From positions 257,858,001 through 257,922,000 of the forward strand of contig OZ024743.1 of the NCBI GenBank assembly GCA_964016885.1: DNA of 64,000 nt, read 5' to 3'. The stretch's first letter is position 1. The number at the start of each line of letters is the position of its first letter. The notes below the pieces were generated by a model. It saw only the letters and a list, made by a program, of their open reading frames with translations, did no database searches and had not been told where the DNA came from. Of this stretch, positions 11,559 to 13,129 are shown in pieces. The DNA comes from Eledone cirrhosa (lineage: Eukaryota). The translations under genes and the position numbers were made by a program.

Positions 11559-11915
11559 TTTTGATGTATTAAAGGATTCTTTGTTTTACTCTCTTAATTT
11601 TTTGGCTCTGTTTAACTGCATTGAGCTATACCTTTTACTGTCATTTCTATAATACGAAGAGGGTGTTTGACTCAAACACGCTCCAGTATTCTAATCCTTA
11701 TATATATATATATATATATATATATATATATATATATATATATATATACATATACATATATACATACAGGTACACATACATATATGCACGCATCACTTTA
11801 GCGGACGCTTATTATAACGCCGCTTTGTTCGTTTGTCAACAAACTGAACAGCATGAATTTATGCCATACGGTGTTAAGGCAACCACGTCACCTTTTTGTT
11901 CAACACTGACACAGG

Positions 11916-11960
11916 AACGATGTACTAGTTTCAAGCTTGTTAGCTATCATCAGCACCGTT
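11916..11960 (-). ncRNA. Type I hammerhead ribozyme (family B); second copy at 12432-12476
   Basis: Reverse complement reads AACGGTG-CTGATGA-TAGCT AACA AGCTT-GAAA-CTAG-TA-CATCGTT, with a GUA triplet. Confidence 0.87.
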
Positions 11961-12006
11961 TACCCATCTGCCAGATAGTTGAACGTTCGAAAGTATATAC
12001 TTTCCT

Positions 12007-12041
12007 TATGAAAATTAACGGCTGAGCAGCCTAATTTGCAT
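12007..12041 (-). promoter_or_regulatory. Putative snRNA-type promoter block (octamer + PSE-like) in family B
   Basis: Minus strand ATGCAAAT-N16-TAATTTTCATA, conserved with family A (N15). Function is inferred. Confidence 0.45.
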
Positions 12042-13129
12042 ATTGAGTGAGTTAAATCGGTCAGGCATACCGAAAACGATAAGTTGAAAAAAATGAAAAC
12101 GAAATTTCATTTCTCACTCTTAGTATGGCACTTACTTAAATGTAAGTATGTATGTATACGTACATACATATATGTATACAGACGTACAGTAGCATGCATA
12201 TATATATATATATATATATATATATATATATATATATATATATATATATATATATATATATATATATATACATATATACATACAGGTACACATACATATA
12301 TGCACGCATCAGTTTAGCGGACGCTTATTATAACGCCGCTTTGTTCGTTTGTCAACAAACTGAACAGCCTGAATTTATGCCATACGGTGTTAAGGCAACC
12401 ACGTCACCTTTTTGTTCAACACTGACACAGGAACGATGTACTAGTTTCAAGCTTGTTAGCTATCATCAGCACCGTTTACCCATCTGCCAGATAGCTGAAC
12501 GTTCGAAAGTATATACTTTCCTTATGAAAATTAACGGCTGAGCAGCCTAATTTGCATATTGAGTGAGTTAAATCGGTCAGGCATACCGAAAAAGATAAGT
12601 TGAAAAAAATGAAAACGAAATTTCATTTCTCCATCTTAGTATGGCACTTACTTAAATGTAAGTATGTATGTATACGTACATACATATATGTATACAGACG
12701 TACAGTAGCATGCATATATATATATATATATATATATATATATATATATATATATATATATATATATATATACATATACATATATAAATATATATATATA
12801 TATATATATATATATATATATTTCTGTGTCTACTAATTTTCACCAATCCTCTTGACAACTACAATCTTCCCATATAAGGAAGTACACCTTGAAAAGTTTG
12901 GCTATTTATTTACCAGACTAAAAAAACTCTTACTTTAGTCCAGAAATAGCTGTCGAAACGGCTTGAGCTCTGCCGTCGGGGTCATACTTCTCCTATTTCG
13001 CACTCTACTATGCTAAATATTGAGTACTCTAGTGCGTTATGGTCCATCTGGTTCCTTACCACAACTCCTTCGTTATCCATATACATTATATATATATATA
13101 TATATATATATATATATATATATATATAT

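What the first reader, a model, noticed from the sequence alone, without database searches (positions are those of the whole stretch)
11750..12715. Divergent sister family B keeps the same ribozyme architecture
Seen: sequence identity to family A is low, but the plan is identical: 7-bp stem I (AACGGTG/CATCGTT vs AATATTG/CAATATT), 14-nt stem-loop II with the same AACA loop, the same ACTAGT stem III, and a GUA triplet. It also keeps the 5' bulge context GATRGGTA opposite CC and a fully rewritten distal stem (GTTCAAC..CTGGCA / TGTCAG..GTTGAAC). Inference: the conserved bulge and AACA loop form the stem I-loop II tertiary contact, and the system is an old, diversified superfamily. The B unit also carries its own internal (TA)n tract.
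Basis: partly seen in the sequence, partly recalled or inferred. Interest (0 to 1): 0.75.

Follow-up and report, generated by a model that had tools for sequence, protein, structure and literature searches.

The report
U·U hammerhead retrozyme, Penelope-type ends
This is a two-copy insertion of a young, very abundant non-coding repeat that carries a hammerhead self-cutting-RNA motif (predicted, not tested, to cut); it is a true sister of the neighbouring family A, and its genome-wide copies end the way Penelope-type jumping-gene insertions end, so it is likely an RNA hitch-hiker (retrozyme) pasted in by such an enzyme.

Summary
Two B units (429/435 identical) lie on the minus strand between (TA)n tracts, each with a type I hammerhead. 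B is a real sister of A: collinear over the whole unit, about 60-70% identical, significant outside the ribozyme (0/1000 shuffles). Three details need correcting. The distal stem covaries in register with A instead of being rewritten. Loop II is AAYA: 13,401 AAUA versus 14,194 AACA U·U-type ribozymes genome-wide. GATRGGTA holds only in the youngest B; only GGUA/CC is fixed. U·U at 10.1/11.1 is a lineage trait (27,595 exact matches) with published active precedents, and the core is conserved across B subfamilies (2/35 versus 65/194 variable sites). Of 70 young insertions picked by one 3' end, 42 have an inverted second arm; 30 of 38 resolved second arms end about 58 nt shorter and none at the same site, which matches the Penelope 'tail'. 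A and B share a 12-mer with U6 promoters, but its spacing to TATA differs. Cleavage, tertiary contact, expression and the driving element are untested or not found. Verdict: a new non-LTR retrozyme family, likely Penelope-mobilised. This scan has already reported the same kind of element, including relatives, elsewhere in this genome.

The parts
11699..11762 (.). (TA)n tract at the 3' side of the insertion; the insertion ends at the position of the unit's own internal TA tract
11763..12197 (-). family B unit, downstream copy (435 nt without TA tract)
   Evidence: 429/435 identical to the other copy; 98-99% to dispersed copies
11898..11984 (-). extended type I hammerhead domain: distal stems, internal loop GAUG/UG, GG/CC, UA bulge, stem I 11954-11960/11916-11922, core 11947-11953, stem II 11933-11946 (U·U, AACA loop), GAA-ACUAGU-A
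   Evidence: (z -2.8); Rfam HH9 only 18.5 bits, below cut-off
11922..11923 (-). predicted self-cleavage site after GUA (untested)
   Evidence: position from the hammerhead consensus
11993..12000 (-). TATA-like box, 43 nt after the start of the U6-like 12-mer (47-49 nt in U6 genes)
12031..12042 (-). 12-mer shared with the -77 to -79 element of three distinct U6 loci; also the 5' arm of a predicted hairpin; second copy 12547-12558
   Evidence: (exact in 94 of 126 A/B units)
12079..12095 (-). LONG 3' end site of the family (T7 run, then TAT); internal in this locus; second copy near 12598
   Evidence: 389 exact genome matches joined to (TA)n, control 0
12130..12147 (-). small hairpin whose loop holds the SHORT 3' end site, about 58 nt before the LONG site; second copy 12646-12663
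12198..12278 (.). internal (TA)n tract at the apex of a long TA-rich hairpin; variable in length between copies
12279..12713 (-). family B unit, upstream copy
12414..12500 (-). second hammerhead domain; predicted cut between 12439 and 12438; cut-to-cut monomer 516 nt
12714..12821 (.). (TA)n tract at the 5' side of the insertion
3782..6159 (.). family A two-armed array (469-bp units), one LONG and one SHORT end
56331..60567 (.). family A two-armed array (466-bp units), one SHORT and one LONG end

Best explanation
Family B is a young, high-copy, non-coding hammerhead repeat homologous to family A over its whole unit, and it is likely a non-LTR retrozyme that is transcribed, is predicted to cut itself, and is likely copied into (TA)n tracts by a borrowed Penelope-like reverse transcriptase-endonuclease. 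Shown: the anatomy, the homology, copy number, conservation of the core, dispersal in (TA)n, head-to-head two-armed insertions with one long and one short 3' end. Inferred: transcription (possibly from the U6-like element in each unit); cleavage after GUA, mainly in the double-hammerhead form through the palindromic ACUAGU, helped by a GGUA/CC-to-AAYA contact; start of reverse transcription at two internal sites, one for each end of the cut target; a template that is longer than one unit or circular, since 5' junctions ignore the cut site.
For: Homology outside the core 0/1000 shuffles. 90% of cells paired, 9 of 21 pairs changed on both sides; slid controls 34-43%. U·U-type ribozymes: 14,194 with AACA and 13,401 with AAUA, controls 0. 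Core positions variable among six B subfamilies 2 of 35 versus 65 of 194 elsewhere, Fisher p = 4.5e-4. Of 70 insertions picked by the LONG end, 42 have an inverted arm; of 38 resolved second ends 30 SHORT, 6 at internal TA, 2 other, 0 LONG. Hand count from loci picked by the ribozyme or core: 27 of 28 two-ended A and B insertions are LONG/SHORT, at homologous sites in A and B. A tail at one end, inverted 5'-truncated copies and (TA)n bias are described for Penelope-like elements (PMC8557442 passages); the tail equals the distance between two RT start sites and both strands are extended in vitro (PMC11167929). Neptune-like and Hydra-like elements are abundant here (10,597 and 56,434 first-look candidates), some with long open frames and their own hammerheads. 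Tandem type I hammerhead repeats in other animals yield circular RNA; an axolotl U·U ribozyme cuts 22% as a monomer, more as a dimer (PMC7229834).
Against: No cleavage, expression or circle was observed. No driving element with B-like ends was found in 80 loci around Penelope-type endonucleases. Only 2 of 105 5' junctions lie within 3 nt of the predicted cut (chance level), so the copies give no direct sign of cut linear RNA. No A-to-G excess (6 vs 6 T-to-C shared; 29 vs 30 single). In PMC11167929 ribozyme cleavage was not needed for insertion and start sites did not differ between strands, whereas B's arms are asymmetric. In the 2026 preprint 8 of 9 tested frog retrozymes did not cut in vitro. 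The covariation mostly reflects one A/B split, so cells are not independent events. The window's own insertion is atypical: both ends fall at the internal TA tract.
Confidence: 0.75

Rival explanations
1. B moves as an uncut, multi-unit read-through RNA copied by a Penelope-like enzyme; the ribozyme is weak or acts only as a folded signal, and no circle is involved.
For: 5' junctions scatter over the unit with no pile-up at the cut; cleavage was dispensable for a Penelope element in vitro (PMC11167929); U·U, GUA and a 1-bp stem III each weaken the motif; 8 of 9 frog elements did not cut.
Against: The catalytic letters are kept across subfamilies that differ by 20% and between A and B; some insertions carry identical private variants and TA lengths in all monomers of both arms (L253, L247, L249), as one small template would give.
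Confidence: 0.3
2. B is only the detached terminal repeat (pLTR) of an autonomous Penelope-like element that was not found, not an independent retrozyme.
For: Frog retrozymes are related to pLTRs (preprint 10.64898/2026.07.22.740005); B has pLTR-like double ends; the partner search covered only 80 loci with 1.5-4.5 kb flanks.
Against: In 70 insertions followed upstream from the 3' end (1.5-4 kb) B is preceded by more B, by an inverted B arm or by unrelated flanks (mapped by B matches; flanks not searched for open frames); arrays reach 9-10 units.
Confidence: 0.1
3. B is a DNA satellite spread by recombination between (TA)n tracts or by extrachromosomal DNA circles, with a relic ribozyme.
For: The window's dimer begins and ends at the internal TA tract; 6 of 38 second arms end there; TA lengths vary within arrays.
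Against: It does not explain two fixed 3' ends, scattered 5' truncations, head-to-head arms (10 of 10 opposite-strand neighbours within 1 kb among the first 100 places are divergent) or conservation of the core. It may still explain this one locus.
Confidence: 0.07

Closest known systems
Metazoan non-LTR retrozymes (coral, mussel, axolotl; PMC7229834, parts 2-4 of 6 read; preprint 10.64898/2026.07.22.740005, parts 1-3 of 5 read)
   Same: Tandem non-coding units with one type I hammerhead each, low GC, strong predicted folding, no LTR; short palindromic stem III as in axolotl HHR_Amex1; U·U at the base of stem II as in HHR_Amex2.
   Different: Unit 420-520 nt with an expanding internal (TA)n; (TA)n targeting; two-armed insertions with one long and one short end, not described for retrozymes in the parts read; U·U and the 1-bp stem III occur together; RNA not yet shown.
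Penelope-like elements, (TA)n-inserting clades Neptune, Hydra, Naiad (PMC8557442 passages, section 11 and supplement rows; PMC11167929 passages and part 2 of the main text; PMC4209133 parts 1-2 of 4)
   Same: Tail at one end, inverted 5'-truncated copy, microsatellite targets, hammerhead with palindromic stem III.
   Different: No open frame; tail about 58 nt (B) and about 70 nt (A) against 30-40 bp; canonical 7-bp stem I with extended distal stems rather than a minimal hammerhead; no sequence match to sampled elements.
Newt satellite 2 (snRNA-type internal promoter; seen only as a one-sentence citation in PMC2220036; the primary paper was not held)
   Same: Hammerhead repeat with a small-nuclear-RNA-type promoter motif inside each unit.
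   Different: The B motif matches U6 (Pol III) upstream elements, not the U2 loci checked; the newt promoter is cited as Pol II; function of the B motif untested.

Membership tests
type I hammerhead ribozyme | core CUGANGA, GAA, A15.1-U16.1, NUH triplet, open stem I | tested here: met
   GUA occurs in natural hammerheads (PMC1636495 abstract)
type I hammerhead ribozyme | paired 10.1-11.1 (usually G-C) | tested here: not met
   U·U in B (11 of 17 rows unpaired); tolerated in natural examples
type I hammerhead ribozyme | Rfam match over the curated cut-off | tested here: not met
   none in the window; HH9 18.5 of 52 bits on both B copies
type I hammerhead ribozyme | self-cleavage; loop I-loop II tertiary contact | not testable with these tools
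   only conservation of GGUA/CC and AAYA
non-LTR retrozyme | tandem non-coding units each with a type I hammerhead, dispersed, no LTR | tested here: met
non-LTR retrozyme | highly self-paired monomer | tested here: met
   z -10.4 with TA tract; z -6.6, 0 of 60 shuffles, as a circle with the tract trimmed
non-LTR retrozyme | expressed as linear and circular monomer RNA | not testable with these tools
   no run on record as RNA was listed
Penelope-mobilised non-autonomous element | two internal 3' end sites (tail) and inverted 5'-truncated arm | tested here: met
Penelope-mobilised non-autonomous element | sequence homology to the terminal repeat of an autonomous partner | tested here: inconclusive
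   no match in 80 loci out of tens of thousands of candidates
U6-type (type 3 Pol III) promoter | upstream element shared with host U6 genes | tested here: met
   same 12-mer, 0-2 differences, at -77, -78, -79 in 3 of the 5 distinct U6 loci compared; absent in the 4 U2 loci printed
U6-type (type 3 Pol III) promoter | same spacing to the TATA box | tested here: not met
   43-44 nt in B and A versus 47-49 nt in U6 (read)

The most novel reading that the evidence does not exclude
B is a self-transcribing circular RNA replicon: a U6-like promoter inside each unit drives it, a U·U double hammerhead cuts it, and two Penelope-type enzymes copy the one circle from two fixed hairpin-marked starts at both ends of a break in (TA)n; its internal (UA)n tract offers a third, homology-guided start. 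The series of six dated B subfamilies plus A would then be a natural record of how retrozymes are mobilised and of which ribozyme letters selection keeps.
Probability: 0.3. Interest if true: 0.7.

Novelty: new member of a known kind. Interest (0 to 1): 0.45.

Why it matters
How animal retrozymes are copied into genomes is proposed but, in the papers read here, not shown. B and A give a quantitative genomic footprint (two fixed ends, one per arm) that points to Penelope-like enzymes and can be tested in vitro with the assay of PMC11167929. B is also a roughly 27,600-copy natural lineage with a U·U in place of the conserved 10.1-11.1 pair, with dated subfamilies that separate fixed ribozyme letters (GGUA/CC, AAYA, ACUAGU) from free ones. 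Searches for retrozyme or Penelope plus octopus or cephalopod returned no paper describing such a family (open-access library only). The kind of element is known, so the gain is mechanistic, not categorical.

Tried and rejected
Expression: no RNA holder listed; laying four runs of unknown kind gave only presence, and two low-depth contigs in runs labelled as other organisms cannot be told from contamination. Other taxa: 0 matches in metagenome contigs, uninformative for animal repeats. Driving element: profile of 126 A/B units against 80 endonuclease-anchored loci found only separate B insertions and one weak hit to a third family, E 0.0015. Cut-site 5' ends: an apparent cluster at +3 to +25 in the first 25 loci was not reproduced in the 70-insertion sample; rejected. 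RNA-editing scars: none. Convergence of young B on A: 15 changes toward, 12 away, 15 neither; rejected as a general trend, though several fall near the ribozyme; a first attempt with a faulty grouping was discarded. Loop AACA as an ancestral constant: at least 4 changes on a 61-row tree (61 of 126 units, 3 broken rows dropped, young B limited; direction not inferred). Other stem II lengths with ACUAGU: 205 and 112 matches, mostly damaged A/B copies or chance. Automated end calls were confused by microsatellites and were redone with anchors. No covariance model was built. The primary newt promoter paper was not held. Supplements of PMC7229834, PMC4209133 and the preprint were not read and may list cephalopod motifs.

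Full report
Observation. The stretch 11763-12713 holds two copies of a 435-nt unit (429 identical) separated and flanked by (TA)n. Rfam finds no match over its cut-offs and only 18.5 bits to HH9, which fits the U·U pair and the very short stem III. Stem III is one pair closed by a palindrome; two copies can pair through it (-6.8 kcal/mol), the double-hammerhead arrangement described for metazoan type I motifs (PMC4209133).

Relation to family A. B and A are collinear: 302 of 423 aligned bases match, or 58-60% over the 5' 300 nt in a multiple alignment. Upstream and downstream of the ribozyme the local scores are 65 and 108, with 0 of 1000 shuffles as high; the last 90 nt alone are weaker (2 of 1000). 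On 17 real copies the stated structure pairs in 90% of cells, with 9 of 21 pairs changed on both sides, against 34-43% for slid controls. Most changes trace to the single A/B split, so this is a handful of events. The inner distal helix is in register between the families.

What is conserved. The genome (G000, 3.0 Gb) has 21,506 exact matches to the AACA pattern and 17,800 with another third loop base (controls 0). U·U-type ribozymes number 14,194 with AACA and 13,401 with AAUA. The loop base changes at least four times on a 61-row tree, and the 5' internal loop reads GGAA, GAAA, GAAG or GAUG along the B lineage, GAUG only in the youngest. So the fixed letters are GGUA opposite CC, AAYA and ACUAGU. 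Among six hand-grouped B subfamilies, 2 of 35 core positions vary against 65 of 194 elsewhere (p = 4.5e-4); within-group divergence runs from 1.5% (window subfamily) to 10%. This is selection on the ribozyme in source elements, inferred, not a measure of cutting. U·U at this position occurs in natural hammerheads and was the best-tolerated mispair (PMC3088659 passage); an axolotl U·U motif cuts weakly as a monomer and better as a dimer (PMC7229834). Neptune-like elements in this genome also carry U·U hammerheads.

How it spreads. Near-identical copies sit on many contigs in (TA)n, as tandem and head-to-head arrays. One 3' end site joined to (TA)n has 389 exact matches. I followed the first 30 and 40 of the next 70 listed places upstream: 42 of 70 have an inverted second arm; 4 run off the fetched DNA; of 38 resolved, 30 end at a second site about 58 nt short of the first, 6 at the internal TA tract, 2 elsewhere, none at the first site. 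A hand count on loci picked otherwise gave 27 of 28 long/short pairs, duplicates counted once, with A using the homologous sites about 70 nt apart. This matches the Penelope tail and inverted copy (PMC8557442) and the two internal start sites with extension of both strands found in vitro (PMC11167929), although that study saw no strand difference in start sites. The 105 5' junctions scatter over the unit; 2 lie within 3 nt of the predicted cut and 12 in the TA tract, both near chance. The template was therefore read through the cut position: a circle or an uncut multimer. Some insertions share private variants and TA lengths across all monomers of both arms; over 42 two-armed insertions 80 sites share a non-majority base and 99 differ between arms, which does not settle the choice. 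No editing bias was seen.

Partner and promoter. Penelope-like endonuclease frames are abundant, but none of 80 sampled loci carries an A/B-like terminal repeat. Its distance to the TATA-like box is 4-6 nt shorter than in U6, the unit has four T runs of 4 or more, and the 12-mer is also a hairpin arm, so a promoter role is open. A third family has a similar module and a different hammerhead.

The internal (TA)n. It expands the apex of a TA-rich hairpin that A has without expansion; it is short in older B. It receives insertions of other elements (L066, L215, L217). The window's dimer starts and ends in it, which could come from priming by pairing or from later deletion between TA tracts; not resolved.

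Verdict. B is best read as a new non-LTR retrozyme family that works like a Penelope passenger (confidence 0.75); cutting, the tertiary contact, RNA and partner remain untested. Searches found no paper on such a family. Earlier notes of this scan describe the same kind of element, including A and a 422-nt B relative, on other DNA of this genome; my reading of retrozyme plus tail was recorded before I saw them, the both-ends and promoter readings came from them.

Noticed in passing
window 11508-11552 (+): A different, G-C-closed hammerhead (Rfam Hammerhead_1, 31.7 of 34 bits) in a separate repeat that runs into the (TA)n beside B; a related copy flanks L023.
   Followed up: partly
window 14528-15136 (-): Endonuclease end of a Hydra-like Penelope element (CxCx5C linker); 56,434 first-look candidates in the genome, best 150 at 88-100% identity.
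   Followed up: partly
window 17261 (-), 20995 (+), 29875 (+), 22762 (+), 24113 (-): Further hammerhead motifs of other families; the 22762 type (U·U, AGUACU palindrome) lies about 380 nt after Neptune-like frames in L114, L115, L118, L124, L126.
   Followed up: partly
L120:1050-1500 (-), L123:3300-3600 (+): Third family with a U6-like 12-mer repeated up to three times, a TATA-like box and a different hammerhead; weak profile hit to A/B.
   Followed up: partly
window 12900-13080: Fold-back repeat ending in (TA)n; the same family has inserted into B's internal TA tract in L066 and L215.
   Followed up: no
window 6577-8256 (-), 16629-17087 (-): Pieces of a LINE-type reverse transcriptase frame.
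   Followed up: no
L009, L011, L092: Inversion junctions at the A5 run just after the distal stem carry an expanded poly(A)/(T) tract, as from slippage.
   Followed up: no
L261, L262, L264-L267: In the U6 gene cluster some copies have their upstream element replaced by another repeat just before the TATA box.
   Followed up: no
L022: A family A array sits directly in the (TA)n at the 5' end of a B array.
   Followed up: no
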